Below are positions 5,028 to 42,000 of a stretch of 64,000 nucleotides of DNA, piece by piece (position 1 is the first letter of the stretch; each line of letters begins with the position of its first letter). The notes beneath the pieces were generated by a model. It made no database searches. It was not told where the DNA came from and saw only the letters and a program-made list of their open reading frames with translations. Made by a program: the position numbers and the translations under genes. Source of the DNA: Bacteroidia bacterium (GTDB lineage: Bacteria > Bacteroidota > Bacteroidia > CAILMK01 > JACPUW01); NCBI GenBank assembly GCA_049115495.1, contig JAGDZV010000001.1, forward strand, positions 370,947 through 434,946, written 5' to 3'.

Positions 5028-5104
5028 AAATAAGTAAAAAGCTTATCGATATTTTTTAGGCGCAAAAGCAACCTCCAATAATTTCGTTGTCAATTACTAG
5101 CTAC

Positions 5105-5935
5105 ATGAAGTATTTAATATTCATTTTGATGTTTGTGCTCTGTTTTATTAAAACTGAAGCGCAAGACAATGACACCAACAAGGTGTTCTTTATTAAAAAG
5201 TACTATTTAAAACAACAAGCCAAAGCCGTTGCCAATGCCAAAAAGTTTGACACTTATAGAGTAACTGGTTTAAGCTTGGGCTATGCTTCTACGCAAGATA
5301 CTCGAATGGCTTTACCTATTTATTCTGGAGCTTCGCTTGGTGCAAATGTGTCGTGGCGTGAGTTTAGCGAAAAATGGTATAGCGAACTCAACTTTGAATT
5401 TGCGTACACAAATCCGTCTTTCGAGGGCGGAAGCTTAAGTTCTTACACACATCTTAGAATGCTTAGCAATATGAGCTTTTTAAGAAAGTTAAATCAAAAC
5501 AAATTTTATTTAGGGGCGGGAATTCACTTTGTTGATGGCCTAAGAATTTATGGTTTTATAGGTAACAGTTCATTCAATAACGATTTAGTTGTAAGTATAA
5601 ACCCTGAGCTTAAATATCAATCAGCTTTTTCTTTATTTAAAAGGCAGTTCAACTACTACACCGGTATTTCTATAAACGGGTTTAGCTATGTGAATAGAAC
5701 CCCATCTTTTGCTACTGGCCTTGACGGGGCACATAATTATTTTGCACCAATAGGTCAGTTTAATAGAGTAAGAATGGCTACGGGTTTGCATTGGAGAAAA
5801 AGGTTTAGCCAAGAGAATAGAATGGGCTTAGAATACAGTTGGGACTTTTACTCTTTAAACGAAAATGATGGGCAAGTTAAATTAAGGTCTGCACAACATT
5901 TAATTTCACTCAACTATTGGTTTAAAACAAGATAA
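5105..5935 (+). CDS. Hypothetical secreted protein, possibly an outer-membrane beta-barrel.
   Basis: Signal peptide MKYLIFILMFVLCFIKTEAQ. The body is rich in aromatic residues and Gly with alternating hydrophobic residues, and the protein ends ...LNYWFKTR. I do not recognise a family. The stop is 1 bp before the next ATG. Confidence 0.4.
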   Translation: MKYLIFILMFVLCFIKTEAQDNDTNKVFFIKKYYLKQQAKAVANAKKFDTYRVTGLSLGYASTQDTRMALPIYSGASLGANVSWREFSEKWYSELNFEFAYTNPSFEGGSLSSYTHLRMLSNMSFLRKLNQNKFYLGAGIHFVDGLRIYGFIGNSSFNNDLVVSINPELKYQSAFSLFKRQFNYYTGISINGFSYVNRTPSFATGLDGAHNYFAPIGQFNRVRMATGLHWRKRFSQENRMGLEYSWDFYSLNENDGQVKLRSAQHLISLNYWFKTR

Positions 5936-5936
5936 C

Positions 5937-6941
5937 ATGAAAAAGCTACTTAATTTAACCCTCTTAATAGTATTACTTACATCTTGTGAGCGAGCTTTCT
6001 TTGAAGAAGTTCCTGAAAATACCCCAAAAAGTATTTTTGAGCAAACTTGGAACTTCGCCAACGAAGAATACAGTTTTTTCAGATTTAAAGGCATTGATTG
6101 GGATTCTGTTTATACGATTTACGAACCTAAAATTAGCAATGAAATGAGCGATGAAGCGCTATTTGATACCTTATCAAATATGCTTTACTTGCTTAGAGAC
6201 GGACACGTAAACTTAAAGAGCGACTTTAACAGATCAAGAAACTGGACTTGGTATCTAGATTATGCCGACAATTTTGATCAATATGTTTTAGAACGGAATT
6301 ATTTTAAACAAGAGCAGCAGTTTGTTGGGCCATTTGTGGTTTACGACTTTGGCAATGTTGGTTATGTATACTATTCAAGTTTTGGCAGTTCTGTTGGTTC
6401 TAGTGATATGAACTATATAATTGAGAAATTCAAAGATCACAAAGGACTTATAATTGATGTAAGAAACAACTTTGGAGGCTCTTTGGGAAATGTGAGCGCC
6501 ATTGGCGAAAGATTTATTGACAGCACAACTGTGGTTGCATTTACAAGAGCTAAAAATGGTACAGAAAGAAATGATTTTAGCGACTTTGAAGACTTTGAGT
6601 TTACTTTTCGCGAAAATCAGAGTCATTTCAACAAACCAGTGGTTGTTTTAACAAACAGAAAAAGCTATAGCGCCGGAAACTATTTTCCTACATGTATGAG
6701 CGCGTTAGATAATGTTACCATTATGGGCGATGTAACCGGCGGTGGAGGTGGTGCCCCCTCATTTATTGAATTGACCAACGGTTGGCTTTTAAGAGTAAGC
6801 ACTACACAACTTTTTACCACTAAAGGCGTGAATACCGAAGATGGTTTAACGCCAGATATTCTTTATGGCGATACTGATACCGAAATGAAAGCTGGTAAAG
6901 ATGTAATTCTAGAAGCAGCCATTGAATTTCTTAACAATTAG
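5937..6941 (+). CDS. S41-family peptidase-like lipoprotein (C-terminal processing or tricorn-core-type domain).
   Basis: Lipobox LLTSCER. The block LIIDVRNNFGGSLGN...VVVLTNRKSYSAGNYFPTCMSALDNVTIMGDVTGGGGGAPS matches the S41 catalytic-domain signature (the Ser-containing GG region and the Lys-containing region). Confidence 0.6.
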   Translation: MKKLLNLTLLIVLLTSCERAFFEEVPENTPKSIFEQTWNFANEEYSFFRFKGIDWDSVYTIYEPKISNEMSDEALFDTLSNMLYLLRDGHVNLKSDFNRSRNWTWYLDYADNFDQYVLERNYFKQEQQFVGPFVVYDFGNVGYVYYSSFGSSVGSSDMNYIIEKFKDHKGLIIDVRNNFGGSLGNVSAIGERFIDSTTVVAFTRAKNGTERNDFSDFEDFEFTFRENQSHFNKPVVVLTNRKSYSAGNYFPTCMSALDNVTIMGDVTGGGGGAPSFIELTNGWLLRVSTTQLFTTKGVNTEDGLTPDILYGDTDTEMKAGKDVILEAAIEFLNN

Positions 6942-7015
6942 CGTTTTCAACTTTGCTTAGTTGTAAAATTTCTTTGTTAAAAGCTAATTTTTGGCTTTAA
7001 CTCAATGTCAAATAA

Positions 7016-7044
7016 GAAGTGCTTTTCCTTCTGAAAAGCACTTC
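7016..7044. terminator. Bidirectional intrinsic terminator with a 12-bp perfect stem (GAAGTGCTTTTC/GAAAAGCACTTC) and a 5-nt loop, sitting between convergent genes.
   Basis: Read directly from the sequence. It lies between the 3' end of the S41 peptidase gene (+) and the 3' end of gldM (-). Confidence 0.5.
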
Positions 7045-7077
7045 TCTGAAATCAAGCTCCCGTTTGATTTATAATTT

Positions 7078-8712
7078 CTATTTGATTGTAAACGTGAGTG
7101 AGCCAGGTAGCATTACTTCTTCGCCAAACCCCACAGGCTTAGCATAGATTTGATAAATACTGAATACATCGCCACTTCTTGCAGCGTTAAATCTATTCTT
7201 TAATTCAGAAGGTATGGCTTGTGAGCTACTGGTTCCCGTAGTTGCGTTACCCCTTGTAGGGCTGTAAATGAAACCATACTTGGTTATTTTGTAACGTACC
7301 CCGTCAAATAAAAACTCAGAATCCATTGTTGCCAATACTCTTCCTACCGATTGCAACTCAGCCTTTGATATTTGCCCACCTGTTTTATTATTTATGTTAG
7401 CATAAGGTTTTGGTACATTCTTTATTCTAAACTCTTGCGGGCTTAAGCTTCTTGTAGTTCCATCGTCCATTCTTACAGCAACATTGATTTTACAAGTTCT
7501 TTGTGTTCTTCTATTTATTTTAACCTTGTATAGCCCATCATTTGTTCTTCTTAGCGACCCCAAGCTGGCTGGGCTTAGAGAAACCTGAACCCTATTGGGT
7601 TCAAAACCAGGAACTGAAACCGAAACGGGGTTTTCTAAACCTACGTAAAAAACATTCATTTTCTCTGCTGAAACTATGGCTGGTGTATTAAACCCTTCAT
7701 ATGATAGCTCGGTATCGTACTCTTCTGTAATTCCTGTTTTTGGATTCAAAAGACTAATCTTAACTGACTTTTTTACAGCACCATTTTGGGTAACAGGAAT
7801 TCTATATTTCCCGGTTGATCCATTAAGTTCAACTTTTTGGCCATCAACTTCAATTGTAGGAGTTACTGATGTTATTTGAGCTCCAAGAAAAATATCTGCT
7901 TCATAACTGCCTCCAATGGGTACTGCTTTGCTCGTAGGCATAACCATGGCTTGAAGTCCGTTTATTGGCTGACCACCACCCATAAAATCTGCTGTTAGTT
8001 TATTTATGACCATTGACTCAGTATTCCTTAGGTCGTTTTGCATTTTAGTTAAAATGGCCAATGCCGCACCCAAGGGAACGTTGTTAAATGTGGCAAACTC
8101 CCAGTTTCGTTTAGAGAGTTCGGGGTTTTCAGCATCGTCTTTTGCACTTAAGGTAAAAGCAGCTTTAAATGTTTCAAGCTCTTCTTCTTTGGTACCTGGC
8201 AGGTCTTTAAATAATGAAATTAGTTTATCGTTGGTATAATAAACCAGTTCCTTCAGCTTTTTACCATAAGCTCTATTTGGGTTGTTTGGGTCAGCAAGTA
8301 GCCTTGATGGCACATCGGTATTCTCTTCATCTACCAGTACCAGCATGTTTGATCCTTTATAAGATTCAGGCCCACCATCATACAGTTGATTCTTTTCTGC
8401 CTCAACCATTAACTTCTTTATTGATTCTATTTTATTGTAAAGAGAATCTGATAGCTCAACGGCACTTTGCACTTTAATTAAATGCACCTGAGCCATTGAA
8501 TCATTTTCCATTCTGCTCACTTGCTGCGTAAAATTCAACACATCCCTTTCAATTTTTTGTTCGGTAGACATTACTGTTTCAGCAATTCCTGAAGTTAAAT
8601 TATTAAATGCCTGAAGCACTTCTCTTGATACATTTAGCGCAAGCAACGCTGTTAAAACTAGGTACATCATACCTATCATTCTTTGTCTTGGGGTTTCTTT
8701 AATTCCTGCCAT
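7078..8712 (-). CDS. gldM: GldM/PorM-family protein, a T9SS and gliding-motility component.
   Basis: The N-terminus MAGIKETPRQRMIGMMYLVLTALLALNVSREVLQAF is almost identical in pattern to F. johnsoniae GldM (MAGGKLTPRQKMINLMYLVFIAMLALNMSKEVLSAF). It has a single N-terminal TM and a ~540-aa periplasmic body, as GldM/PorM does. Confidence 0.8.
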   Translation of the reverse strand: MAGIKETPRQRMIGMMYLVLTALLALNVSREVLQAFNNLTSGIAETVMSTEQKIERDVLNFTQQVSRMENDSMAQVHLIKVQSAVELSDSLYNKIESIKKLMVEAEKNQLYDGGPESYKGSNMLVLVDEENTDVPSRLLADPNNPNRAYGKKLKELVYYTNDKLISLFKDLPGTKEEELETFKAAFTLSAKDDAENPELSKRNWEFATFNNVPLGAALAILTKMQNDLRNTESMVINKLTADFMGGGQPINGLQAMVMPTSKAVPIGGSYEADIFLGAQITSVTPTIEVDGQKVELNGSTGKYRIPVTQNGAVKKSVKISLLNPKTGITEEYDTELSYEGFNTPAIVSAEKMNVFYVGLENPVSVSVPGFEPNRVQVSLSPASLGSLRRTNDGLYKVKINRRTQRTCKINVAVRMDDGTTRSLSPQEFRIKNVPKPYANINNKTGGQISKAELQSVGRVLATMDSEFLFDGVRYKITKYGFIYSPTRGNATTGTSSSQAIPSELKNRFNAARSGDVFSIYQIYAKPVGFGEEVMLPGSLTFTIK

Positions 8713-8955
8713 TGTTTTTAGATTTATTGGGTTAGCAAAGACACACCTCTCCCATTCTCTATAATTTGGCTTGCAAGCATTAATAAAAGTGGGGAGCTTT
8801 AAAAGATGTTCTTCATAGCTTTATGATCCAACATTAAAAAGGTAACCCAGTAGTAACTGATTTTTTTGAATTTGACCTTTAAAACAAAAGCTCTATTAAG
8901 AAAAATCGGCATTTAAAAGCATGCTAGCTTTTAACAGAAAAGTTATAAATAAATT

Positions 8956-9660
8956 TTATCTAAGCTTCCACAATCGCCACCATGCCGTTGCAGGCGAATC
9001 ATGATGCTCATAGTGATAACCAAAAAAATAACACGTTAAAAAAGCTACCAAATGATTCTTTTTTTGAGATCTAGAATTGTGTTTGTTATTGGAATCATGC
9101 TGTCCACGATGTGGTAAATAGGTGCCAAAATAGAACAACTGCATTGTAGCAAGTATTGAAGGAATTATCCAATAAAGCACTAAGTTTTCTTTTGCCACCC
9201 AAATACTTATTACATTAAATGTAATTGCCGCTAAGATAATCTGCCACCAACTTATGTATTCTTTCATAAAGTCAAAAAACCAAATAAAGAAGTTTGGATG
9301 GCCATTATGATAATCAGGATCATTTTGAGTACCGGCATGCTTGTGGTGTAAATGGTGTTTTGGATAAAGTGTTTTGTAAGAATTAAACAAAAACAGAGTT
9401 GCACAAACCTTACCAATAATGTGGTTGAGTTTTGGACGCTCAGGGGCCACAGTACCGTGCATGGCATCATGTGCAGTAATAAACAAGCCTGTAAATAAAT
9501 GAGCCTGAATGAAAATTAAAACGTAGCTGAGTGGATTTAACCAATCAATTGAAGTGCTAAGGTTGATGTACAATACAAGTGCCCATAATGCCATAACAAT
9601 AAATGCTACAAAAATTCCTACACCTTGTTTTTGCCGTGGTAACTTAATTGTTTCTTGCAT
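8956..9660 (-). CDS. crtW: Beta-carotene 4-ketolase (CrtW-type fatty-acid-desaturase-like di-iron enzyme).
   Basis: Histidine boxes AHDAMHG, HHLHHKH and HYEHH are present. GTYLPHR...LTCYFFGYHYEHHDSPATAWWRLWK aligns with Paracoccus CrtW (GTWLPHR...LTCFHFGGYHHEHHLHPTVPWWRL). Confidence 0.85.
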   Translation of the reverse strand: MQETIKLPRQKQGVGIFVAFIVMALWALVLYINLSTSIDWLNPLSYVLIFIQAHLFTGLFITAHDAMHGTVAPERPKLNHIIGKVCATLFLFNSYKTLYPKHHLHHKHAGTQNDPDYHNGHPNFFIWFFDFMKEYISWWQIILAAITFNVISIWVAKENLVLYWIIPSILATMQLFYFGTYLPHRGQHDSNNKHNSRSQKKNHLVAFLTCYFFGYHYEHHDSPATAWWRLWKLR

Positions 9661-11004: not shown

Positions 11005-14000
11005 CTATGGATGGCCGGTTTGGCAAGAGCATCCCGGCTGCATAAAGCCTTGTGAGCTTTCATGCCACGGAAAAGCCTGATTATAAGCATTGGTTTCCCA
11101 ATAGAATGGCTCCCGCTCTTTGCTGTAATTGCCTATTTCATTCATTGTTTCTGTATCGTAAAGCCTACCATTAATCATGGTGTAAACAATACTTTCAGTG
11201 TTTCTAATATCTTCCAATGGGTTTTCGTCCATAATGATTAGATCGGCAAGTTTTCCTTCTTTTAATGAACCGATATCTTTACTCATGCCAATATAGTCTG
11301 CACCGTTAAGTGTGGCTGCTCTAAGGGCTTCAAGGTTGGTCATTCCGCCCTGTTGTAAGCTCCATAGCTCCCAATGAGCACCAAGACCTTGTAGCTGTCC
11401 GTGTGCGCCAAGGTTAACTTTTACACCGGCATCAGCTAGCTTTTTACAAGATTCCGAAACAAGAATGTGTCCATTCTCATATTCTTCTTGCGGCACCATG
11501 GTTCTATGTCGGCTTCGTGAATCAATGATTCCGCGCGGATAGAATTTCAGAAGCTTTTCGTTTTCCCAAACATTGGTGTTTTGATACCAGTAGTATTCGG
11601 AATTTAAACCACCGTAGTTAACAATTAGTGTTGGTGTGTAACCGGTATTGCTAGCACTCCAAAGCTCAATAATATCCTTATAAACAGGCGCAACAGGAAT
11701 GTTATGCTCTACTCCAGTGTGGCCATCAATAATCATGGTCATGTTGTGAAAGAAAGTAGAGCCACCTTCAGGCACCACAAAAATGCCTTCTTCTTTGGCA
11801 GCTTGAATCACCATTTGGCGTTGATCTCGGCGGGGTTGGTTGTAGCTTTTTACTGATAGCGCACCAAAAGCTTTGGTTCTTCTAATTGAAGAACGTGCAT
11901 CATCAATATTATTTACAACGGCTTTAATATCAGACTCTGCTCCGTATAAAATGAACCCTGTTGAGAACAAACGCGGGCCTACCAAACCACCTGATTTTTG
12001 CAATTCGCTCAGCGCAAAAACGGTTTCTGTGTTTGCTGAAGGATCATGTGCCGTGGTAACACCATAGGCCAAGTTGGCGTAATACTGCCAGTGCTTTTGG
12101 GTAGTTAAACCATGTCTAAATGCACCTATATGGGCGTGAACATCAACTATTCCCGGCATTATAGTTTTACCGCTCACATCAATTGTAAACGCGCCAACTG
12201 GCACAGGCACTTCTCCATTTTTACCAACGGCTTCTATCCTATTATCTTTAATAACAATGGCTCCATTTTCAATCACTTCATTGCCTTCCATGGTTATAAT
12301 TCTTGCGCCATACAAAACGGTATAGCCGTCGGGCTTATCGGCTTTTGCCACTAAACCAATCTTTAGGCCTTCTTTTTCGGGTAATGGTGCTTCTTTTGGT
12401 CCGTTTTCTAAAAAGGTGAAACGGTCTTCAATATCTACTGAGAAATATTCGTTTCCAAGTGTCCACATTAGGGTTTCGCTATTGGTGCTCCAATGCAAGT
12501 TTGTACCTGCATCAAGCGCCACCTGTGCTACAGGAATTGATTTTGATTTGTCGCTAAGGTCCAAATTCTGTCCGCTTGGCGGAATTGGGGCGATGTACAC
12601 CTTATGCAAATGCGTAAAGGCAATCCATTTGTTATCAGGGCTTGGTAACAGTCGGTTGGCATACTTTGAAGTGATGTGAACTCTCTCGTCAAGACCATCA
12701 AAATTTATGCTTTTTAGCTGCTTGGTTAGGCTGCCAAAATAATGACCACCAGTTTGAATGTATAACCTTGAATCATCTTGATTAAACATTGGATATTGCC
12801 CCTGTTCGCCAACTTTCTTTACCTCTCCTCCATTGGCATTCATTTTATAAATACCAGGATTTTTTGAGTAGGCATGGCCTTGATCATTATTGCCACCTTC
12901 TTTTTGGTAAACAATTGATAGGGCATTATTACTGAATCTTGGTGTTCTGTAAATGCCTTTTTCTCTCGTAAGCTTCACTTGGTTGGTGCCATCCAAATTC
13001 ATTTTCCATATAGCCCCAAGCTCTTTATCATTCCAAGTAACAAATACTATTTGTTTGCCATTAGGCGAGAATGATGGTTCAAACTCAAAGTCAGAAAAAT
13101 CAGTGATTCTTTTTGGCGTTCCTTTGGGCAAGGCTTTGATGTAAAGGTGTCCTAAGGCGCTAAATACCAAAGACTTTCCATCAGGAGAAGTTTGAGCATG
13201 GCGTATCACTTTTACATCAAATTCGTCAGTGTAAGCTGGATTCTCAAACTCCAAGGCTTTGGCAATTTTCAAATTAACATCAACTTCAAAAGGTATAATT
13301 GCTGATTCTAAAGTTTTGATATTTAGTTTATTGATTTTACCACCTGCCCAAAACACTAAATGCTTATTATCAGGCAACCACTGAAAATTGGTGTAAACGC
13401 CAAACAAACACCAAGCTTCCATTTGGTCTTTGTTAAGCTTGTCATAAACCGGATATTCTAAGCCTGATTCTAATTCATGGATATAAAGTACTGACTTTGT
13501 TCTTACCCTTTTTACAAAAGCCAACAACTTACCGTCAGGAGAAATTTGCGGTCGAGCCGCACCACCAGGTCCACCAGTTATGGTTTTGATTTCACCCGTT
13601 TCAAATTCATATCGCTTAATCACATAGATTTGGCTATTGGGGTCTTTGTTGTATTGAAAATAACCACCAGGATACATGTCTTCGCAGTAATACATGTATT
13701 TTCCATCCTTACTCACAACAGGCTCATTTACGTCTTGCTGATCGTTTTTGCGTTTGGTTAACTGAACACCAGAGCCTCCAGTAATATGGTACATCCACAT
13801 TTCCCCAGCACCCAATGACCTACCAGAAGTAAAGTGTTTTCTGGCGACTAAATAATCCCCATTGGGCATCCAACAGGCATTATTTAGCAGCCTAAAGTTT
13901 TCTTTTGTTACCTGTTTGGCGTTTTTACCATTGGCATCCATCACCCAAACGTTATCTCCACCGCCAGCATCACTTGTAAATGAAATTTTGCTTCCATCAG

Positions 14001-14310
14001 GGCTGAATCGTGGTTGAATTTCAAATGGAATTCCACCTCTAAGCACTTTTGCCTTACCGCCAGTAATTGGTATAGTATAAATATCACCCACCATGTCAAA
14101 AACTATGGTCTTTCCATCAGGACTTACATCTAGGTTCATCCAAGTACCTTCATCTGTAGTAAAACTCAAGTCATCATACCCCATATCTCCTGGAGGGTTA
14201 CTTACCTCCCATTTTGATTTTTCTGATGATTTTTTGCTTTTGCTAGAATATGTGAAGGCCATTGCCAAGGCCAAAATAGCCGTAGCAATGAAGTAAAGCG
14301 CTTTGTTCAT
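11005..14310 (-). CDS. Large periplasmic protein with N-terminal TolB-like WD40/PD40 beta-propeller repeats and a C-terminal amidohydrolase (metal-dependent hydrolase) domain.
   Basis: Signal peptide MNKALYFIATAILALAMAF; the longer ORF start is 14364. Repeated SPDGK.../FSPDG... PD40 motifs run through the first ~700 aa. The C-terminus carries PGIVDVHAHIG (amidohydrolase HxH metal site) and later HG...GAH. Confidence 0.7.
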   Translation of the reverse strand: MNKALYFIATAILALAMAFTYSSKSKKSSEKSKWEVSNPPGDMGYDDLSFTTDEGTWMNLDVSPDGKTIVFDMVGDIYTIPITGGKAKVLRGGIPFEIQPRFSPDGSKISFTSDAGGGDNVWVMDANGKNAKQVTKENFRLLNNACWMPNGDYLVARKHFTSGRSLGAGEMWMYHITGGSGVQLTKRKNDQQDVNEPVVSKDGKYMYYCEDMYPGGYFQYNKDPNSQIYVIKRYEFETGEIKTITGGPGGAARPQISPDGKLLAFVKRVRTKSVLYIHELESGLEYPVYDKLNKDQMEAWCLFGVYTNFQWLPDNKHLVFWAGGKINKLNIKTLESAIIPFEVDVNLKIAKALEFENPAYTDEFDVKVIRHAQTSPDGKSLVFSALGHLYIKALPKGTPKRITDFSDFEFEPSFSPNGKQIVFVTWNDKELGAIWKMNLDGTNQVKLTREKGIYRTPRFSNNALSIVYQKEGGNNDQGHAYSKNPGIYKMNANGGEVKKVGEQGQYPMFNQDDSRLYIQTGGHYFGSLTKQLKSINFDGLDERVHITSKYANRLLPSPDNKWIAFTHLHKVYIAPIPPSGQNLDLSDKSKSIPVAQVALDAGTNLHWSTNSETLMWTLGNEYFSVDIEDRFTFLENGPKEAPLPEKEGLKIGLVAKADKPDGYTVLYGARIITMEGNEVIENGAIVIKDNRIEAVGKNGEVPVPVGAFTIDVSGKTIMPGIVDVHAHIGAFRHGLTTQKHWQYYANLAYGVTTAHDPSANTETVFALSELQKSGGLVGPRLFSTGFILYGAESDIKAVVNNIDDARSSIRRTKAFGALSVKSYNQPRRDQRQMVIQAAKEEGIFVVPEGGSTFFHNMTMIIDGHTGVEHNIPVAPVYKDIIELWSASNTGYTPTLIVNYGGLNSEYYWYQNTNVWENEKLLKFYPRGIIDSRSRHRTMVPQEEYENGHILVSESCKKLADAGVKVNLGAHGQLQGLGAHWELWSLQQGGMTNLEALRAATLNGADYIGMSKDIGSLKEGKLADLIIMDENPLEDIRNTESIVYTMINGRLYDTETMNEIGNYSKEREPFYWETNAYNQAFPWHESSQGFMQPGCSCQTGHP

Positions 14311-14486
14311 GTTTGCGAATTTATGGCTTCGACTTCGCTCAGCCACCAATTCGATCCGCTTCAATCCAATCTGACTTCAACTGATGTTCTTACATGCTAT
14401 CTTAAGCACTGAGAATGCAAACGACCTAAAACGTGACAAACAATTATCTACCTCAAAAGATAGGATTCTGAGCATAGCCAAACTGA

Positions 14487-18793: not shown

Positions 18794-19350
18794 TATAGCT
18801 GCGATGTAATTTTATCGCTCATTGGATTTACAGAACTTGAAAATGCTTCAACATAATTTCCATTCTCATCAATAAGGTATTTATGGAAATTCCATTTTAC
18901 TGAAGAATTCTCTTTTCCGTTCAACTCTTGGCTAGTAAGCCATTTGTAAATGGGGTGTTGTTCTTTTCCTTTTACATCAATTTTCTCAGTTAATTGAAAA
19001 GTTACACCAAAGTTCTTTTCGCAAAATGCCTTAATCTCGGTTTCTGTTCCAGGTTCCTGTCCTCCAAATTGATTACAAGGAAAACCAATTATGGTAACCT
19101 TCTCTCCGAATTTTTCGTGTAGCTCTTGTAAGTCTTTATACTGCTTGGTAAAGCCGCACTCTGAAGCCACATTAACAAGAAGCAACTTTTTACCCTTGTA
19201 TTCTGAAAGTTTCAATTCTTCACCATCTATTGACCCAATGGTGTAATCATAAATATTGCTACTCATTTTTTCTTTAAATTCTGGATTGATTGAAAATGCA
19301 GATATCAGCGTTACAGCTGCTATTGCGATAGCTATAGTTATTTTATTCAT
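18793..19350 (-). CDS. Glutathione peroxidase (thiol peroxidase, GPx family) with an N-terminal signal or anchor segment.
   Basis: LLLVNVASECGFTKQYKDLQELHEKF...IIGFPCNQFGGQEPG are canonical GPx motifs; the catalytic Cys is in VASECG and FPCNQF is present. Its stop overlaps the crtZ start (TAATG) and its start overlaps the crtYcd stop (ATGA). Confidence 0.85.
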   Translation of the reverse strand: MNKITIAIAIAAVTLISAFSINPEFKEKMSSNIYDYTIGSIDGEELKLSEYKGKKLLLVNVASECGFTKQYKDLQELHEKFGEKVTIIGFPCNQFGGQEPGTETEIKAFCEKNFGVTFQLTEKIDVKGKEQHPIYKWLTSQELNGKENSSVKWNFHKYLIDENGNYVEAFSSSVNPMSDKITSQL

Positions 19351-20051
19351 TTGGTTATTTTCTTAATTACAAATTTCTTTTTTCGTATCCACTCTAGAAT
19401 AATTACGTTCATCAAAATAAGTAACATACCATACCAAATATCTTCAAAAGGTATAGTTGTAACTCTAAAGCCCAAGTTTTGCTCATTGTTATACATTACA
19501 ACCGGCTTTGCAGTAAGCACACCATTTACCAACATAAACGGAAAAATTGCAATTCCATATGTTGGATAAAAATAGTGTTCAATTTCGTGCTTGAACATAA
19601 TTCTCTGAACAATAAGAAATGTTGCCAATAACGAAAATGTAATTGCGGTGTAAGCTTTTTCGTAGTTGAATAATGCTGCCAAGATTAGTAGTGCCGAACC
19701 TCCGTAAGTTAGCACATTTAGCAATCTAATATTCAATTTAATATTAAACCATCCCCTAAGGCATTCGTATATAAAAACGCATGCATACGGTATAGTTATA
19801 AAAAAGAGCCACTCTTCAAGTGGCAAATTAATAAGATCTACACCCAATAAATAGGTTGGATTAAACCCCCAAACACCATTTTTAGTAAACCATACATCCC
19901 AAACAATAAAAAAGGCACCTACAATAAAAATGGCAATAAACAAATATTTCCAATTTTTATAAAAGGCCACCTTCTTATCGAAAGAAAGCACCAAGGGGAA
20001 AAACATGGTGCCAATGTTAAGTAAAAGGTAGGTATTGGGGCCGTCAAGCAT
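19347..20051 (-). CDS. crtYcd: Lycopene cyclase domain protein (fused heterodimeric CrtYcd-type lycopene beta-cyclase).
   Basis: ~234-aa polytopic membrane protein. It has two repeated halves, each with PLEEW/ PFEDIWY-type motifs (NLPLEEWLFFITIPYACV ... TIPFEDIWYGMLLIL), which characterise the lycopene_cycl_domain family (TIGR03462). Confidence 0.65.
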   Translation of the reverse strand: MLDGPNTYLLLNIGTMFFPLVLSFDKKVAFYKNWKYLFIAIFIVGAFFIVWDVWFTKNGVWGFNPTYLLGVDLINLPLEEWLFFITIPYACVFIYECLRGWFNIKLNIRLLNVLTYGGSALLILAALFNYEKAYTAITFSLLATFLIVQRIMFKHEIEHYFYPTYGIAIFPFMLVNGVLTAKPVVMYNNEQNLGFRVTTIPFEDIWYGMLLILMNVIILEWIRKKKFVIKKITK

Positions 20052-20057
20052 TATGCA

Positions 20058-20894
20058 CTAGAATGCGTTCAGTTGATGGCGTACGTAGGTTTGCATAAGC
20101 AAATAAAGCTTTTTCCCATTGGGTACTCTTACTCTTTCCGATTTTATCACTTCGGGAGTAAGCGATTTAATCTTGTTAAATAGTCTTTGATAATATACGA
20201 AAGCCAAGTAAACACCTCTCCTAGCTCCTGCAGGTAACTGCATTATACCAATGTAGGCCTCTTCAAAGTCTTTTTGAATATCGTCTTCAATAGCTCTTTT
20301 TGCATCAACATTAAAGCTATCAAAATCAACACCCGGAAAATACACTCTTCCTCTTTCGTAAACATCATCTTTTAGGTCTCTCAAAAAGTTTACTTTTTGA
20401 AACGCAGATCCAAGTTTCCTTGCGGGTTCTCTTAATCTTTCATATTCGTCAATATCTCCTTCTACAAAAACACATAAACACATAAGGCCTACTACTTCGG
20501 CACTTCCGTAAATGTATTTTTCGTATCCATCTTGCTTATAAGCATCAAAATATAAATCCATTTCCATGCTTTCTAAAAATGATACGATAAGGTCATGGGG
20601 AATATTGTACTCTCTAACCACTTCTTGAAAAGTGTGCAATACTGGGTTAAGGCTAATTCCTTGATCAATGGCTTTGAATGTATCGGTCCTAAACTCATCA
20701 AGCAATTGCTTTTTGTCTTTGTGATGAAAAGTATCAACTATTTCATCAGCGAATCTTACAAAGCCATAAATACCATAAATGGGATCATGAAAACGCTTGT
20801 CTAGGCTTCTAATACCTAATGAAAATGAAGTGCTGTAAGCTTTAGTAATAAGCTTACTACACTGCCTGCATGTTTGATGATATAAGGCTAGCAT
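20058..20894 (-). CDS. crtB: Phytoene synthase (squalene/phytoene synthase family).
   Basis: The N-terminal SFSLGIRSLDKRFHDPIYGIYGFVRFADEIVDT carries the DxxxD-like substrate-binding region. YIYGSAEVVGLMCLCVF and GSAFQKVNFLRDLKDD match the CrtB second aspartate-rich motif. Confidence 0.85.
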   Translation of the reverse strand: MLALYHQTCRQCSKLITKAYSTSFSLGIRSLDKRFHDPIYGIYGFVRFADEIVDTFHHKDKKQLLDEFRTDTFKAIDQGISLNPVLHTFQEVVREYNIPHDLIVSFLESMEMDLYFDAYKQDGYEKYIYGSAEVVGLMCLCVFVEGDIDEYERLREPARKLGSAFQKVNFLRDLKDDVYERGRVYFPGVDFDSFNVDAKRAIEDDIQKDFEEAYIGIMQLPAGARRGVYLAFVYYQRLFNKIKSLTPEVIKSERVRVPNGKKLYLLMQTYVRHQLNAF

Positions 20895-22371
20895 GGTTTT
20901 GTTCTTTTATAATACGTTCGGTAACAAGTTTTGAACCTACCACAACCATTGGCAATCCGGTGCCTGGTGTGGTTGAAGCACCTACATAGTATAGGTTGTT
21001 CAACTCTTCATCTTTGTTGCTTGGTCTGAAATAGCCAATTTGGTCAAGATCGTGTGCAAGTCCAAGTCCGCTACCTTTATATAGATTAAACTTCTCTTCC
21101 CAATCTTTTGGTGTCCAAATTGTTTTGCTCAGTATATTATTCTTAATATCAAAATCTACTCTATTCCCTAAGTCTTCAATTATACCATTAGCAAATTCCT
21201 CGGCATCTTCCCAAGTGGGTTTATATCTTAGATCTTGTACAGGGCATAAAATAAATAGGTTTTCACAACCTTCTGGCGCGCAAGTATCATTCATCTTTGA
21301 CAGCGAATTCACATAGTAATAAGGTCTCTGTGGACTATCATTTCTAGTGAAAATCGTATCAGCATACTCTTTAAAATTATCTCCTAAAAAGTAGTTGTGG
21401 TGATTTAGATTGTCAATTTTCCCTTTAACACCAAGGTATATGGTAAAAGGAGCTAGCGTCCATTTCTTCTTGTCTAACTTAGGTTCTGCATACTTCTCTC
21501 TGTTTAGTATTTGCCCCCTAAACGAAGCTGCATCTCCATTAACTACATATGTATCGGCTTGCCAAAGATTTCCGTTTTGATCTACAACACCATCTACAGC
21601 ACCGTTAGATTTTTTTACTTCGGTAATTTCTGTGTTGAATAAAAACTGGACACCTCTTTTCTTGAGTTCAGCCATCATCACATCAACTATTTGATACATT
21701 CCACCTTTTACATTCCAGTAACCATCGTGTTTAAGCTCTGTGTAATTCAACAAGCTGTAAACAGCAGGCGTATTAAAAGGTGTTGCGCCTAGGAAAAATG
21801 CAACAAGTGAAAAAATGATTTTAACCTGTTCACTATCGTAATGACTATCAAGCTCGTCCCACATGTTTCTAAACAACATGGGAACATATTTAACGGGCAC
21901 TTTTAAAAATTGAGCAAAGAACTTGAAAGGATTGTCAAAATTGTTCTTTACGATGTTGTACTCAGTACTGTGAAAAAGATCAGATGCCTTTTTGAGGTAT
22001 TTCTCTGTTTTGGCAACAAAATCGGGTTCAATTTTGGCAAACTCTTGAGCCAACAACTCAAGGTCTTTGTAAACCTTATATCTCTCATCTTTGCCTGCAA
22101 AATGTACAGTGTACAGGGGATTAAGCTCGTGAAAATCAATTGGATTTTTCATACCCACGTACTTAAAAAGCTCGTCGAACTCATAGCTCATTGAGAAAAA
22201 CGAAGGACCTACATCCCAAGTAAATCCATCTTTTTTGAGCTGGTTTAATCTACCTCCAGCTTGATGGTGCTTCTCTATGATTTGTACGTGGTACCCATGG
22301 TGGGTTAAGCGCAAGGCTGTGGCTAATCCACCAAGTCCTGAACCTACAATAATTGCTTTAGGCTGCGGCAT
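20857..22371 (-). CDS. crtI: Phytoene desaturase (CrtI-type FAD-dependent).
   Basis: N-terminal KAIIVGSGLGGLATALRL (FAD βαβ fold). ~500 aa. The C-terminal YYVGASTTPGTGLPMVVVGSKL matches the CrtI C-terminal signature. Confidence 0.85.
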   Translation of the reverse strand: MPQPKAIIVGSGLGGLATALRLTHHGYHVQIIEKHHQAGGRLNQLKKDGFTWDVGPSFFSMSYEFDELFKYVGMKNPIDFHELNPLYTVHFAGKDERYKVYKDLELLAQEFAKIEPDFVAKTEKYLKKASDLFHSTEYNIVKNNFDNPFKFFAQFLKVPVKYVPMLFRNMWDELDSHYDSEQVKIIFSLVAFFLGATPFNTPAVYSLLNYTELKHDGYWNVKGGMYQIVDVMMAELKKRGVQFLFNTEITEVKKSNGAVDGVVDQNGNLWQADTYVVNGDAASFRGQILNREKYAEPKLDKKKWTLAPFTIYLGVKGKIDNLNHHNYFLGDNFKEYADTIFTRNDSPQRPYYYVNSLSKMNDTCAPEGCENLFILCPVQDLRYKPTWEDAEEFANGIIEDLGNRVDFDIKNNILSKTIWTPKDWEEKFNLYKGSGLGLAHDLDQIGYFRPSNKDEELNNLYYVGASTTPGTGLPMVVVGSKLVTERIIKEQNHASLISSNMQAV

Positions 22372-22879
22372 GTGATATGTTTATTCTTTGTAATTTCTTC
22401 TTAAGCTCTTGACGTGCTAAGAAAATACGACTCTTAACCGTGCCAAGTGGCAAATCAAGTTCGTCAGCAATTTCTTGATACTTAAATCCTTCATAATGTC
22501 TCATGAATGGCACTCGGTACTCATCTGGTAAACCCGCAACAATCTTCATAAGATCGTCCATTACTAATTTACCTTGTGCTCTGTTCCCTTCGCTCTGTTG
22601 GTTTGAGTCAAGATAAAAACTGTTTTCAGTTCCGTCTTGGGTAATTCTCATTTTGGTTTTACGACGGTAGTTGTTAATGAAGATATTCTTCATTATAGTA
22701 TAAAGCCACGCTTTGATGTTGGTTCCCTGTTCAAATTTGTCCTTGTTGCTCAAAGCTTTGAACATAGTCTCTTGCAAGAGGTCGTGGGTGTCTTCTAGGT
22801 CATTGGTAAGATTCAATGCGTATGGCTTCAAAAAATTTTGGAGGGCTATTACTTTAGTTTGAAACTCTTGTGTTGACAT
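22358..22879 (-). CDS. ECF-type RNA polymerase sigma-70 factor.
   Basis: Region 2 (DLLQETMFKALSNKDKF...KAWLYTIMKNIFINNYRR) and region 4 (EYRVPFMRHYEGFKYQEIADELDLPLGTVKSRIFLARQELKK) are present. The start MSTQEFQ at 22879 is supported by a candidate -7 box 14 nt upstream; the longest ORF start is 22930. The 3' end overlaps the crtI start by 14 bp. Confidence 0.75.
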   Translation of the reverse strand: MSTQEFQTKVIALQNFLKPYALNLTNDLEDTHDLLQETMFKALSNKDKFEQGTNIKAWLYTIMKNIFINNYRRKTKMRITQDGTENSFYLDSNQQSEGNRAQGKLVMDDLMKIVAGLPDEYRVPFMRHYEGFKYQEIADELDLPLGTVKSRIFLARQELKKKLQRINISHAAA

Positions 22880-22899
22880 GTGTTTAACTTTTGATGATT

Positions 22900-22967
22900 C
22901 AAACCTAAACAAAAAATTCAGACGTACCAAATTTTTGTTTAACTATTGACCCGCCTATGTTAAACAA
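22900..22967 (-). promoter_or_regulatory. Candidate Bacteroidetes-type promoter of the sigma/crt operon, with a perfect inverted repeat abutting it. The -7 element is TAGGTTTG (22907..22900, minus strand) and the -33 element is TTG (~22930..22928). The inverted repeat is TTGTTTAAC-N15-GTTAAACAA (22935..22967).
   Basis: Read directly from the sequence. It matches the Bacteroidetes sigA consensus TAnnTTTG/-33 TTG from established knowledge. The 9-bp perfect inverted repeat is very unlikely to be chance in an AT-rich context. Confidence 0.3.
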
Positions 22968-26020: not shown

Positions 26021-26563
26021 ATGAAAGGAGTAGTATTTACCGAGTTTCTAGAGTTAGTTGAAGAAAAATTCGGATATGAAGTGGCTGATCACATAATTGA
26101 AACAAGTAATTTACCAAACAAAGGAGCTTACACCGCTGTAGGCACCTATCCATTTGGTGAGTTAGCTACCATGCTGGGTAAGCTTAGCGAGCACACAAAA
26201 ATTCCAGCTTCAGACCTATTAGTGGCCTTTGGTCATCACTTATTTAACACATTTATTAGGCTTTATGGACACTTTTTTGAAGGTATCAAAGATTCGTTCG
26301 ATTTTCTCACGAACATTGAAGGCTACATACATGTAGAAGTAAAAAAACTATATCCTGATGCTGAATTGCCAAGTATAAAAACGGAACAAATTGATGATAA
26401 AACACTCATTTTGCATTACGTGTCAAAAAGAAAACTGGCACATTTAGCCTTTGGTTTAATTGAGAAATCACTTGAACACTTTAAGCAAAAGGCAAACATT
26501 AAAATGGAAAATAAAGATGATTCGGGTGAGAATGTAACCATAACAGTTGAGCTAACAGATTGA
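26021..26563 (+). CDS. hnoX: H-NOX (heme nitric oxide/oxygen binding, HNOB) domain protein, a stand-alone gas sensor.
   Basis: It aligns with T. tengcongensis H-NOX. MKGVVFTEFLELVEEKFGYEV vs MKGTIVGTWIKTLRDLYG. The proximal-His region NIEGYIHVEVKK vs MMDEVHLQLTK. The Y-x-S-x-R motif ILHYVSKRKLAHLAFGLIEKSLEHFK vs EMEYVSKRKMYDYFLGLIEGSSKFFK. The stop overlaps the next gene's ATG (ATGA). Confidence 0.85.
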   Translation: MKGVVFTEFLELVEEKFGYEVADHIIETSNLPNKGAYTAVGTYPFGELATMLGKLSEHTKIPASDLLVAFGHHLFNTFIRLYGHFFEGIKDSFDFLTNIEGYIHVEVKKLYPDAELPSIKTEQIDDKTLILHYVSKRKLAHLAFGLIEKSLEHFKQKANIKMENKDDSGENVTITVELTD

Positions 26564-39068: not shown

Positions 39069-42000
39069 ATGCTAAAGCATACCCCTAAGCATCTAATTCT
39101 ACTTTTTATTTCACTTTTTAGTGCGCCATTGTTAAAGGCTCAAATGTCAGGTACTTATTCTATTGACAAAACGAGTAGTGCAACTAGAAATTATACATCT
39201 TTTACTGCGGCGGTAAATGCCCTTAACTCTGTAGGGGTTAGTGGAGCAGTAAAGTTTGAAGTAGCAAATGGAAACTACAATGAGCAAATAACATTGCTTT
39301 ATGTTTCGGGATCTTCCACCACAAACACCATCACTTTTGTTGGTAAAGATTCGAGCAAGGTTTCACTAAACTATAATTGCTCTCAATACGAAGCTGTTAT
39401 AAAGGTAAATGCTGCTGCCAACTTTGTATTTGAAGGCATGACCATTAAGAGCACAAATGCTAGTTATGGATACGGGGTGCATATTACATCAAGTGCCGAA
39501 AACATAAGCATTAGAAATTGTAGAGTAGAAGTATCGGCGACTAGCAATGTACCAGTAGAATGCGTACCTGTAAATGTGGCTGGTGGAACCGTTACTACAA
39601 ACGGTGATAATGGAGAAAAAATTGAAGTAACAAACTCAGTTTTGCGAGGTGGCTATTACGGATTAAACATTAGAGGAACTAATAATAGCTTATTAAGCGA
39701 AGGTTTTACTATTGAAAACAATCATTTTTATCAGCAACGTTTTTATCCTGTTTTTGCTGTTTTTGCCAAAGATCTCAACCTTAATGAAAACGTTATTGAC
39801 AGCACCAATTTATTTTATTCCTACTCTGTTTATACAGACCAATGTGCTGGAGGAAGCATTATTGGCAATAGGATTTATGCTGGAAGATTTGGGCTTTATC
39901 TCAGACTGCACAACTATTATAATCGCGCAGACTCATTGGTAATTAGCAACAACGAAATAAGTGATTTTGATGACCCAAGTTATCAATCCGGAATTTATGC
40001 TGTTGCTTCATATAATATTTCTGCTTACCACAATACCATTAGAACTGATGGAACGGTGAGCAACTTCAATTATTCATGTATTTATTTATCTAACCCGTAC
40101 AATCATCGCATATTAAATAATAACCTTGTTGCTGAAGGAAATAGTAGTGTGCTTTTTTTAGGAAATGGAAGCCTTGGAAGCACCTACATTGATTACAATA
40201 ATTACAGTACGACTGCAAATGGAGGATTTGTGAGCTGGCAAGGTACATCATACTCAAACCTAGCTGATCTAAAAGCAGCAACAAGTAGCCAAAATCAAAA
40301 CTCCATTAGCGAAAATCCGCAGTTTAGTTCTAAAAGAAATTTATCACCTAATACACCAGGTTTAAACAATAGAGCAAGAAATGGTTTAAGCTCATTTGAT
40401 ATTTTAAGAAATGTAAGACCAAAGTTTCCTGATGTTGTTTCAGACATAGGTGCATATGAGTATTATGTAGATTCAAATGATATTGACATAATTGCTATTA
40501 CAAGCCCATTGATTGGCCAATTGGGAAATAATGATCTGGCAATTGTTCTAAAAAACAATGGAAGTAAACCTTACCGAGACTCGGTGTTTGTACAATACAA
40601 AATCAACAATGGTTCATGGACTAAGGATACATCAGTATACACATCATTAGCTATTGGAGCCGCTGACACATTTTATTTTACCACAAATTGGAACATTACT
40701 TCATCAGGCACCTTTACTGTATGTGCCGATATTTCACCTGTAGTTCCAGGTGACCCTGACTCTTTAGTAGGTGAAGAATATTGTGAGACAAAATGTGTAG
40801 GTAGGTCTGGAACATTTACCATTGACGCCTCTGGTAATGGTGATTATACCACTTTTACCCAAGCCATAAATTCTCTTACTTGCGGCATTGCTGGCCCAAT
40901 TACTTTTAAAGTTAAACCAGGAAATTATAATGAGCGATTAACAATTACACCTGTTCTAGGTGCATCGGTACAAAATCTTATAACTTTTGAAGGAGCGCAC
41001 AAAGACAGCGTAACATTAAACTATAATGGAACATCGTCTCTTCCAGCTTCTGTTTTAATTGATGATGCAGACTTTTTAACTTTTAAAAATCTAACTATCA
41101 ACAACCAAGGCAATCAAGTTTCTTGTGGATTTTGGCTTAGAGAAGATGTTAAAAATGTAAGAATAGAAAACTGCCAAATATTTTTAGACTCGGTTGCTAG
41201 TATTTATAGTTCTGCTGGTATTTTGATTGCCAACTCACTTCCTACGTGGTCATGGACAATCCCAGGTAATACTTCAAATAATTTGGTAATCAAGAATAAC
41301 CTTATAGTTGGTGGTAGCAGCGGAATAAGAATTAATGGATCTGGTGCTACAGCCACTGCTCAAAAACTTGAAATTGAGAATAACATAATTAGAAAATATT
41401 ACTATCAAGGCTTAAATGCCGCTTATGTAAGTGAATCTAAATTTAAAAAGAATCATATTACTGGTCCAAGGTTAATTAGTGCCATAGGTTTTGGAATGTT
41501 TAATTGTCAAAACGATAGCGTTGATGCGAATTATATTCAAGGTGGAAGATTTGGACTCTATTTATCAAGAGAGAATTTTGACAACAGGAATACATTTACG
41601 GCTATTACCAATAATATGATTACCAATTTGATTGATGCAAATTATCAAATTGGCTTAATGGCATCTCTGGGCTATAATCTATCTATTTATCACAACTCAA
41701 TTTGGACTAGCCATTCTTTTTCTTCTCCATACTACTCAGGAATGAACCTTTATTACTGCCAAAATAGTTTTGCAAAAAACAACGCTATTAAAGCTACAAA
41801 TGGCGGGATGGTTTTTTCAAAGTACTATGGAAATATTAGCCGATCGAATATTGACAACAACAACTACTACGGTGAAGGTGCTGCAAAATATTATCATGAT
41901 GGTTTAACATTTACTGACCTTGGAACCTATAAAAGCATTAGAACTAACTTTAATTCAAATAGTCTAGAAGGTGAACCCAATTATACATCAATTACCGACC

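What the first reader, a model, noticed from the sequence alone, without database searches (positions are those of the whole stretch)
7078..9660. Orphan gldM/porM homolog without gldK, gldL or gldN neighbours, directly downstream of crtW
GldM normally lies in the invariant gldK-gldL-gldM-gldN (porKLMN) operon that forms the T9SS motor and ring. Here the GldM-like gene (N-terminus virtually identical in pattern to F. johnsoniae GldM) is flanked upstream by crtW and downstream by a convergent S41 peptidase gene with a strong bidirectional terminator. No GldL-sized ORF is present in the 243-bp upstream gap. Either the core operon is split in this organism, or this is a second, stand-alone GldM paralog. 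A paralog could be a specialised periplasmic shaft for particular cargo such as the 4297-aa CTD protein in this window.
Basis: partly seen in the sequence, partly recalled or inferred. Interest (0 to 1): 0.55.

Follow-up and report, generated by a model that had tools for sequence, protein, structure and literature searches.

The report
Stand-alone second GldM motor paralog
This marine Bacteroidia genome has the normal gldK-L-M-N secretion and gliding motor operon on another contig, and the window gene is a conserved, separately placed second copy of the motor shaft protein GldM, a paralog my literature searches did not find described.

Summary
Window 7078-8712(-) encodes a full-length GldM with the N-terminal TM helix, Arg9 and all four periplasmic domains. 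It scores 240 bits on TIGR03517 (cutoff 180). No gldK, gldL or gldN lies anywhere in the 64 kb.

The operon-split reading is refuted and the paralog reading is confirmed. The window's own MAG (locus-tag prefix JXQ87) carries PorP, GldK, GldL, a second GldM (JXQ87_15135, 39% identical) and GldN on another contig. Their accessions are consecutive, MFY0674729-733. Two related MAGs show the same pairing directly in DNA.

The extra copy, here called GldM2, forms a 100%-supported clade nested in this lineage's own GldM clade. It has diverged as slowly as the operon copy. Its D1/D2 domains are more conserved than in the operon copy, and its D3/D4 tip is less conserved. A basal subclade keeps a gldM2-gldN2 pair, so the origin was a partial gldMN duplication. 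The window's subclade keeps only gldM2.

crtW adjacency is incidental. No link to the 4297-aa CTD protein is supported.

A conserved GGTTACC-N15-CAT motif precedes gldM2 in every stand-alone locus examined, which suggests separate regulation.

The likely function is an alternative GldL-driven shaft with a changed outer partner. This is inferred, not shown.

The parts
7078..8712 (-). gldM2: stand-alone second GldM/PorM paralog, 544 aa. Layout: cytoplasmic N-tail with Arg9, one TM helix (about residues 8-29), helical D1, and beta domains D2-D4.
   Evidence: Pfam and NCBIfam hits. PDB sequence alignments. AF2 model with pLDDT 81, and Foldseek top hits PorM 7cmg and GldM 6ey4. 100% identical to NCBI MFY0672064.1, locus tag JXQ87_01585.
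8823..8847 (-). Conserved two-block motif GGTTACC-N15-CAT, 110 nt upstream of the gldM2 start codon. Candidate alternative-sigma (ECF-type) promoter or regulator site.
   Evidence: It is the only exact match in the 64-kb window; 0.09 are expected. The same motif lies at a similar upstream distance in L001, L002, L003, L088, L089, L093, L096 and L097. It precedes gldN2 in L092 and L094. It lies 21 nt upstream of a Sigma70_r2 gene in L088.
8713..8822 (-). Leader/intergenic stretch between the motif and the gldM2 start. It contains the palindrome CTTGCAAG at 8770-8777, conserved in 6 of 7 relatives.
   Evidence: Alignments. No conserved RNA structure. No Rfam family.
7015..7045 (.). Perfect 13-bp stem / 5-nt loop hairpin between the convergent gldM2 and S41 genes. 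Probable transcription terminator.
   Evidence: strand folding gives z -5.0 on the minus strand and -4.8 on the plus strand. Sequence read.
8956..9660 (-). CrtW-like beta-carotene ketolase gene. It is an upstream neighbour only and is not part of the GldM2 unit.
   Evidence: NF045690 248 bits, below the 350 cutoff, plus FA_desaturase. Absent next to gldM2 in L001, L003, L088 and L093.
5937..6941 (+). S41 peptidase (Tricorn_C1 + Peptidase_S41), convergent neighbour. With the 282-aa ORF at 5087-5935 it stays syntenic in close relatives but not in all, so it is a neighbourhood feature and not an operon partner.
   Evidence: Present in L001, L002, L088 and L089; absent in L003 and L093.

Best explanation
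The gene is GldM2, a conserved extra copy of the T9SS/gliding motor protein GldM. It sits alone, away from the genome's complete porP-gldK-gldL-gldM1-gldN operon.

Origin: it arose within this uncultured marine Bacteroidia lineage by a partial duplication of gldM-gldN. A basal subclade still has gldM2-gldN2. The window's subclade kept only gldM2.

Proposed mechanism (inferred, not shown): GldM2 keeps the cytoplasmic tail, Arg9 and the TM helix that in solved GldLM motors sit inside the GldL pentamer and pair with GldL Glu49. It therefore most likely assembles with the operon-encoded GldL into alternative proton-driven GldL5-GldM2(2) units, or into mixed GldM1/GldM2 dimers. The periplasmic shaft has diverged to about 40% identity with GldM1. 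The constraint pattern is reversed, with D1/D2 tighter and the outer-membrane-proximal D3/D4 looser. This suggests the tip engages a different or less demanding partner than the GldK/GldN ring. The gene is probably transcribed on its own from a promoter region carrying GGTTACC-N15-CAT, so the cell could change motor composition under particular conditions.

Confidence is tiered. That this is a conserved stand-alone second GldM paralog in a genome with a full operon: about 0.9. That it works as an alternative GldL-driven shaft with a changed outer partner: about 0.45. The single figure given is a blend of the two.
For: Shown.
(1) Full GldM architecture and family score.
(2) No gldK, gldL or gldN in the window or in the stand-alone relatives' loci.
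(3) The same assembly has PorP, GldK, GldL, GldM1 and GldN with consecutive accessions MFY0674729-733 on one 604,430-b contig. The accession logic was validated on GCA_016124515.1, where consecutive accessions match adjacency seen in DNA.
(4) Both loci were read directly in GCA_016124515.1 (L088 and L090) and in GCA_020437725.1 (L094 and L095).
(5) The GldM2 clade has 100% bootstrap support and is nested in the lineage's own GldM clade. A gldM2-gldN2 subclade is sister to the stand-alone subclade.
(6) Purifying selection. Between the same genome pairs GldM2 and GldM1 diverged equally (0.62/0.61 and 0.50/0.50). dN is 0.128 with dS saturated against the 82% relative.
(7) Arg9, Gln10, Tyr17 and Asn27 are invariant across 47 GldMs including the GldM2 sequences. 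In GCA_016124515.1, residues 5-29 are identical between GldM2 and GldM1 by direct reading.
(8) The role of Arg9-Glu49 comes from bioRxiv 10.1101/2022.01.28.478170.
(9) Domain-wise shift of constraint: D1 0.63 vs 0.49, D2 0.58 vs 0.45, D3 0.60 vs 0.78, D4 0.58 vs 0.77, GldM2 vs GldM1, for JXQ87 vs GC194.
(10) The motif is conserved upstream.
Against: No experiment or expression data exists, and all genomes are MAGs or metagenome contigs.

The TM helix is nearly identical in most Bacteroidota GldMs. Its conservation shows competence to bind a GldL but not that it uses the operon GldL. A divergent second gldL elsewhere in the genome cannot be excluded, because the GldL search listed only the best 120 hits.

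Only five clade-discriminating, fully conserved positions were found, and all are conservative changes. No obvious new interface is visible.

The D3/D4 relaxation could equally mean partial loss of function.

The promoter reading of the motif rests on position and on one sigma-gene instance. In the gldM2-gldN2 loci the motif precedes gldN2 and not gldM2.

Co-occurrence rests on MAG binning. It is seen in three independent assemblies, and the GldM1 and GldM2 divergences are congruent.
Confidence: 0.6

Rival explanations
1. Simple operon split. This would be the genome's only gldM, moved away from gldK, gldL and gldN.
For: The gene is alone in the 64 kb and scores above the GldM equivalog cutoff.
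Against: The same assembly has GldL, GldM1 and GldN with consecutive accessions on another contig. Relatives carry a full K-L-M-N operon plus the extra copy.
Confidence: 0.03
2. Binning artefact. The orphan and the operon belong to two different but related organisms merged in each MAG.
For: All evidence comes from MAGs. One MAG pair also comes from one sequencing run (SRR10063241).
Against: Three assemblies with different accession series and locus-tag prefixes show the same pairing. The window's two contigs are 812 kb and 604 kb. Pairwise divergence of GldM2 tracks that of GldM1 for the same assembly pairs. None of the GldM2 loci carries gldK or gldL. An organism with only GldM2 would therefore need those genes elsewhere anyway.
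Confidence: 0.05
3. Modulator or brake. GldM2 competes with GldM1 for GldL, or heterodimerises with GldM1, without driving any outer-membrane partner. Its role would be to tune or switch off T9SS or gliding.
For: The TM helix and Arg9 are retained. The D3/D4 tip is relatively relaxed, and gldN2 is lost in the window's subclade. A separate regulatory motif is present.
Against: All four periplasmic domains stay under purifying selection, and overall divergence equals that of GldM1. A pure competitor would need only the N-terminal part.
Confidence: 0.2
4. Decaying or functionless duplicate.
For: There are no partner genes nearby. NCBI annotated it 'hypothetical protein'.
Against: Full-length intact ORFs occur in at least 16 clusters at 90% identity, plus two seawater contigs, spanning 49-85% identity. 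dN is far below dS. An upstream motif is conserved.
Confidence: 0.03

Closest known systems
GldM / PorM, the periplasm-spanning subunit of the GldLM (PorLM) T9SS/gliding motor (F. johnsoniae GldM 6ys8 and 6ey4; P. gingivalis PorM 7cmg and 6ey5)
   Same: Single N-terminal TM helix with Arg9. Helical D1 plus three beta domains. Family HMM score above cutoff. Predicted fold matches over about 530 columns.
   Different: It is not encoded between gldL and gldN. It coexists with a canonical GldM in the same genome at 39% identity. The pattern of constraint across domains is shifted. It has its own conserved upstream motif.
GldN/GldO paralog pair of F. johnsoniae (PMC9127263)
   Same: A lineage-specific duplication of a core T9SS ring or motor component. 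The basal GldM2 subclade also carries a duplicated GldN.
   Different: gldO lies next to gldN inside the operon, and the two are partially redundant. Here the duplicate is GldM, it is relocated, it is only about 40% identical, and in the window's subclade it has no GldN partner.
Multiple PorP/SprF paralogs dedicated to particular cargo (PMC9127263)
   Same: The idea that T9SS accessory paralogs specialise the machine for subsets of substrates.
   Different: PorP/SprF paralogs sit next to their cargo genes. GldM2 has no consistently adjacent cargo gene.
Alternative stator sets of flagellar motors, such as MotAB/PomAB or MotCD (my own knowledge, analogy only)
   Same: One rotary machine served by exchangeable, separately regulated 5:2-type motor subunits.
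   Different: In those systems both stator subunits are duplicated. Here only the '2' subunit (GldM) is, as far as could be seen.

Membership tests
GldM/PorM (TIGR03517; Pfam PF12081, PF21601, PF21602, PF12080) | Whole-protein score above the curated equivalog cutoff | tested here: met
   240 bits against a cutoff of 180. This is lower than expected for a typical orthologue, which fits a divergent paralog.
GldM/PorM (TIGR03517; Pfam PF12081, PF21601, PF21602, PF12080) | Four periplasmic domains D1-D4 after a single N-terminal TM helix | tested here: met
   All four Pfam domains are above cutoff. The AF2 model has helices at 8-26 and 30-244 followed by three beta domains. Foldseek top hits are PorM and GldM.
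GldM/PorM (TIGR03517; Pfam PF12081, PF21601, PF21602, PF12080) | Conserved Arg9 (FjoGldM numbering), proposed to pair with GldL Glu49 | tested here: met
   R9 is invariant in the 47-sequence alignment. It aligns without gaps to FjoGldM residues 1-36.
GldM/PorM (TIGR03517; Pfam PF12081, PF21601, PF21602, PF12080) | Encoded in the gldK-gldL-gldM-gldN (porKLMN) operon | tested here: not met
   No K, L or N gene in the 64 kb or in the stand-alone relatives' loci. The operon with its own gldM is on another contig.
GldM/PorM (TIGR03517; Pfam PF12081, PF21601, PF21602, PF12080) | Forms a GldL5:GldM2 proton-driven complex and is required for secretion or gliding | not testable with these tools
   This needs co-purification, cryo-EM, multimer modelling or genetics.
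ECF-sigma-dependent promoter (for the GGTTACC-N15-CAT motif) | Two conserved blocks at fixed spacing upstream of target genes | tested here: met
   The spacing is exactly 15 nt in all ten instances aligned. There is one match in the 64-kb window against 0.09 expected.
ECF-sigma-dependent promoter (for the GGTTACC-N15-CAT motif) | The same motif upstream of the cognate sigma gene (autoregulation) | tested here: inconclusive
   Seen once, 21 nt upstream of a 187-aa Sigma70_r2 gene in L088. No such sigma gene lies within the other loci. The window's own ECF sigma at 22358-22930 lacks the motif.
ECF-sigma-dependent promoter (for the GGTTACC-N15-CAT motif) | Transcription start downstream of the motif, dependent on the sigma factor | not testable with these tools
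   This needs 5'-end mapping or transcriptomics.

The most novel reading that the evidence does not exclude
This lineage runs two kinds of T9SS/gliding motors from one GldL. One is the operon GldM1 motor, coupled to the GldK/GldN ring. The other is a separately regulated GldM2 motor, originally with its own GldN2, whose diverged shaft and tip drive a different output. Examples of such an output would be adhesin movement as opposed to secretion, or a particular cargo class. This would be the first case of exchangeable rotor or shaft subunits in the T9SS, comparable to stator swapping in flagella.
Probability: 0.3. Interest if true: 0.7.

Novelty: new variant of a known kind. Interest (0 to 1): 0.5.

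Why it matters
GldLM is one of the few known proton-driven rotary motors. How one motor serves both secretion and gliding is still open. For example, GldL E59 is needed only for SprB movement (PMC8986121).

A naturally occurring second GldM offers a comparative handle on which parts of the shaft determine the output. It keeps the membrane-embedded motor residues but has a re-constrained periplasmic shaft. It also carries its own regulatory motif.

The finding also corrects annotation practice. Both GldM copies of this MAG are labelled 'hypothetical protein'. In addition, the presence of 'a gldM' on a contig cannot be taken as a marker of the operon.

The main limit is that all carriers are uncultured, so tests would need heterologous systems or a cultured relative.

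Tried and rejected
1. Exact-sequence look-ups of the window protein and of P0001 in the contig index found nothing on record.

2. The genome-contig scan with the window protein was swamped by the universal QRMIGMMY pattern. I reused those loci as a baseline for K-L-M-N linkage.

3. crtW linkage is rejected, because crtW is not adjacent in any relative.

4. S41 peptidase linkage is rejected. The gene is convergent, and it is absent in L003 and L093.

5. A link to the giant CTD protein is not supported. It lies 30 kb away behind unrelated genes.

6. tblastn with GldN2 of L092 finds no gldN2 in the window or in L001-L003, L088-L089 and L093; with both GldN queries it also finds none in L096 or L097.

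7. The Rfam search of 6900-9000 gave only sub-threshold noise.

8. RNAalifold on seven gldM2 leaders predicted no structure.

9. The sigma-70 and terminator consensus scans were uninformative.

10. The search for clade-specific radical substitutions found only five conservative positions.

11. Literature searches for GldM or PorM paralogs, second copies or 'GldM-like' proteins found nothing relevant.

12. The first bootstrap attempt timed out. I redid it with a numpy distance routine.
Full report
**1. The observation**

The ORF at 7078..8712 on the minus strand encodes 544 aa. It matches all four Pfam GldM domains: GldM_1st at residues 31-241, GldM_2nd at 251-334, GldM_3rd at 345-431 and GldM_4th at 434-543. 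Each is above its gathering score. It scores 240 bits on the NCBIfam equivalog TIGR03517, 'type IX secretion system motor protein PorM/GldM', whose cutoff is 180.

phmmer against PDB sequences aligns it end to end with P. gingivalis PorM (7cmg, E 6e-33) and F. johnsoniae GldM (6ys8, residues 1-536 to 1-503). The first 36 residues align without gaps. They are 23/36 identical by my count from that alignment.

An AlphaFold2 model (mean pLDDT 81) shows a TM helix, a long helical D1 and three beta domains. Its best Foldseek matches in the PDB are PorM and GldM chains over about 530 columns.

The upstream neighbour at 8956..9660(-) is CrtW-like and lies 243 bp away. It scores 248 bits on NF045690, below the 350 cutoff. 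The downstream neighbour at 5937..6941(+) is a convergent S41 peptidase.

A perfect 13-bp hairpin at 7015-7045 lies between the convergent genes, with z about -5 on both strands.

tblastn with PorP, GldK, GldL and GldN from the nearest canonical operons finds none of them in the 64-kb window.

**2. Operon split or paralog**

A homology search showed a graded series of relatives. P0001 is 100% identical and comes from an NCBI MAG annotated 'Bacteroidia bacterium', locus tag JXQ87_01585, on an 812-kb contig. P0002-P0017 are 85-49% identical, and P0018-P0036 are 45-39%. After that comes the bulk of GldMs at 35% or less.

Contexts separate two classes:
- Proteins at 58% identity or more are stand-alone, as in the window (L001/L002, L003, L088, L093).
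- The 42-45% proteins whose loci were read sit in porP-gldK-gldL-gldM-gldN operons (L004-L007, L090).

A search with an operon GldM (P0025) then returned P0124. It is annotated 'hypothetical protein JXQ87_15135 [Bacteroidia bacterium]' and lies on a 604,430-b contig. This is a second GldM with the window MAG's own locus-tag prefix. It is 39% identical to the window protein.

Cluster look-ups gave the neighbours on that contig:

| Accession | Protein |
|---|---|
| MFY0674729.1 | PorP/SprF |
| MFY0674730.1 | GldK |
| MFY0674731.1 | GldL |
| MFY0674732.1 | GldM (P0124) |
| MFY0674733.1 | GldN |

Consecutive accessions mean adjacent genes. I checked this on GCA_016124515.1. There GldN, GldM, GldL and GldK are MBI1184237-240, and they are seen adjacent in the DNA of L090.

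Two related assemblies show both loci directly:
- GCA_016124515.1 has the stand-alone copy on WGNN01000050.1 (L088) and the full operon on WGNN01000076.1 (L090).
- GCA_020437725.1 has the extra copy on JAGQWA010000045.1 (L094) and the full operon on JAGQWA010000128.1 (L095).

The operon split is therefore refuted. The gene is an additional paralog, which I call GldM2.

**3. Evolution**

I built NJ trees with 100 bootstraps. The first used 51 sequences and the second 63. The GldM2 clade is monophyletic at 100% (18 sequences). The stand-alone subclade within it is also supported at 100% (15 sequences). Both lie inside a lineage-specific clade that also holds the operon copies and is well separated from other Bacteroidota GldMs.

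The sister subclade (P0014-P0016) is different. In L092 and L094, gldM2 is followed by a gldN2 of 291-295 aa. It hits PF19841, and the L092 copy is 56% identical to an operon GldN. These loci have no gldK or gldL. The simplest history is a partial duplication of gldM-gldN followed by loss or relocation of gldN2 in the window's subclade.

GldM2 is under purifying selection:
- Between the same genome pairs, GldM2 and GldM1 have diverged equally. The values are 0.62 vs 0.61 for JXQ87/GC194, 0.50 vs 0.50 for JXQ87/KDC92 and 0.47 vs 0.52 for GC194/KDC92.
- dN is 0.128 against the 82%-identical relative, with dS saturated.

The distribution of constraint differs between the copies. For JXQ87 vs GC194, identities in GldM2 and GldM1 are as follows:

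| Domain | GldM2 | GldM1 |
|---|---|---|
| D1 | 0.63 | 0.49 |
| D2 | 0.58 | 0.45 |
| D3 | 0.60 | 0.78 |
| D4 | 0.58 | 0.77 |

The same trend holds across whole clades.

**4. Surroundings and regulation**

crtW is not next to gldM2 in any relative. The genes found upstream are an AAA_14 gene plus a 165-aa gene, RNase Y, or an Aldolase_II gene. The pair formed by S41 and the 282-aa ORF is syntenic in close relatives only, and it is convergent. No gene is consistently co-oriented with gldM2, so it looks monocistronic.

The upstream regions are otherwise diverged but share GGTTACC-N15-CAT. In the window this lies at 8823-8847(-), 110 nt before the ATG. It is the only exact match in 64 kb, where 0.09 are expected.

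The motif's other occurrences are:
- It lies at a comparable upstream distance in L001, L002, L003, L088, L089 and L093.
- It also lies there in two seawater metagenome contigs retrieved with a GldM2-specific DNA pattern (L096, L097).
- In the gldM2-gldN2 loci it lies in the short gap before gldN2.
- In L088 a further copy lies 21 nt upstream of a 187-aa Sigma70_r2 gene.

This is what an autoregulated ECF-type sigma regulon would look like, but it rests on a single sigma-gene instance. No Rfam family and no conserved leader structure was found.

**5. Mechanism (inference)**

Arg9, Gln10, Tyr17 and Asn27 are invariant in a 47-sequence alignment that includes the GldM2 clade. In solved GldLM/PorLM motors the FjoGldM Arg9 equivalent points at the FjoGldL Glu49 equivalent, a proposed salt bridge (bioRxiv 10.1101/2022.01.28.478170).

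In GCA_016124515.1, residues 5-29 of GldM2 and GldM1 are identical (sequences). The TM helix is almost as conserved across the phylum, so this shows competence to bind a GldL and not a specific partner.

The most economical model is that GldM2 plugs into the operon GldL. This would form alternative motor units whose outer tip has changed partner.

A brake or modulator role is the main rival.

**6. How unusual**

Of the 80 ordinary GldM loci fetched from GTDB species genomes, 66 had enough flank on both sides to test. Of those, 64 show K-L-M-N.

Two exceptions are L034 and L079, from Flavobacteriales UBA6057 and UBA1993. They are full four-domain GldMs and are 58% identical to each other. Neither has gldK, gldL or gldN in its fetched flanks. 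They branch far from GldM2. Stand-alone GldMs have therefore probably arisen more than once.

Full-text searches found no description of GldM/PorM paralogs. Only the GldN/GldO pair and multiple PorP/SprF paralogs are discussed.

**7. Verdict**

The paralog alternative is confirmed and the operon split is refuted. The cargo-specific link to the giant CTD protein is unsupported.

This is a new variant of a known kind: a conserved, separately placed and probably separately regulated second GldM. Its function is inferred only.

Noticed in passing
window 8823-8847 (-); L001 9864-9888; L003 9852-9876; L088 9861-9885 and 795-819(-); L093 9843-9867; L092 11645-11669; L094 about 11639-11663; L096 motif start 5596(-); L097 motif start 6293: The two-block motif GGTTACC-N15-CAT precedes gldM2 in stand-alone loci and gldN2 in gldM2-gldN2 loci. 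It also precedes a Sigma70_r2 gene in L088. It may mark an ECF-type regulon.
   Followed up: partly
window 8770-8777 (-), and the aligned positions in L001, L003, L093, L096, L097: The 8-bp palindrome CTTGCAAG is conserved in the gldM2 leader in 6 of 7 relatives. A further block, AAGTCGTT(A/G)C, is shared by L003, L093, L096 and L097. No RNA structure was predicted.
   Followed up: partly
L034 384-2015 and L079 4138-5769: A second, unrelated group of stand-alone four-domain GldMs occurs in Flavobacteriales MAGs UBA6057 and UBA1993. They are 58% identical to each other, and no gldK, gldL or gldN lies in their fetched flanks. Whether those genomes also carry an operon copy is unknown.
   Followed up: partly
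L092 1-9538 and 12846-15059: In one gldM2-gldN2 locus the pair is flanked upstream by a protein of more than 3383 aa with Laminin_G_3 and by a 612-aa protein with no Pfam hit. Downstream is an LRR protein with a T9SS C-terminal sorting domain. This arrangement is not seen in L094.
   Followed up: no
P0124 (JXQ87_15135, not in the window): The operon GldM of the window's MAG is annotated as 534 aa starting at MMYLV. It thus lacks the about 14 N-terminal residues, including Arg9, that all relatives have. This is probably a mis-called start. Both GldM copies of this MAG are labelled 'hypothetical protein'.
   Followed up: no
window 19347-22930 (-) and 8956-9660 (-): A carotenoid cluster comprises an ECF sigma (22358-22930), a phytoene desaturase-like gene (20857-22371), phytoene synthase (20058-20894) and lycopene cyclase (19347-20051). 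The CrtW-like ketolase lies about 10 kb away from it.
   Followed up: no
window 39069-51962 (+) and 52471-54561 (-): A 4297-aa protein carries 29 PKD_4-type repeats and a Por_Secre_tail T9SS sorting domain. Next to it is a 696-aa protein with the same sorting domain. No link to gldM2 was found.
   Followed up: partly
window 26021-29040 (+): An H-NOX (HNOB) haem-NO-binding gene is immediately followed by, and overlaps, a PAS/HisKA/HATPase/receiver/Hpt hybrid histidine kinase. This looks like a likely NO or O2 sensing pair.
   Followed up: no
window 11005-14364 (-) and 5937-6941 (+): An 1119-aa protein has PD40 repeats and an amidohydrolase domain; its counterpart in relatives is annotated with Tricorn_N/Tricorn_2nd. 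An S41 peptidase with a Tricorn_C1 domain flanks the gldM2 region on the other side. Both stay syntenic in the 82%-identical relative (L001).
   Followed up: no
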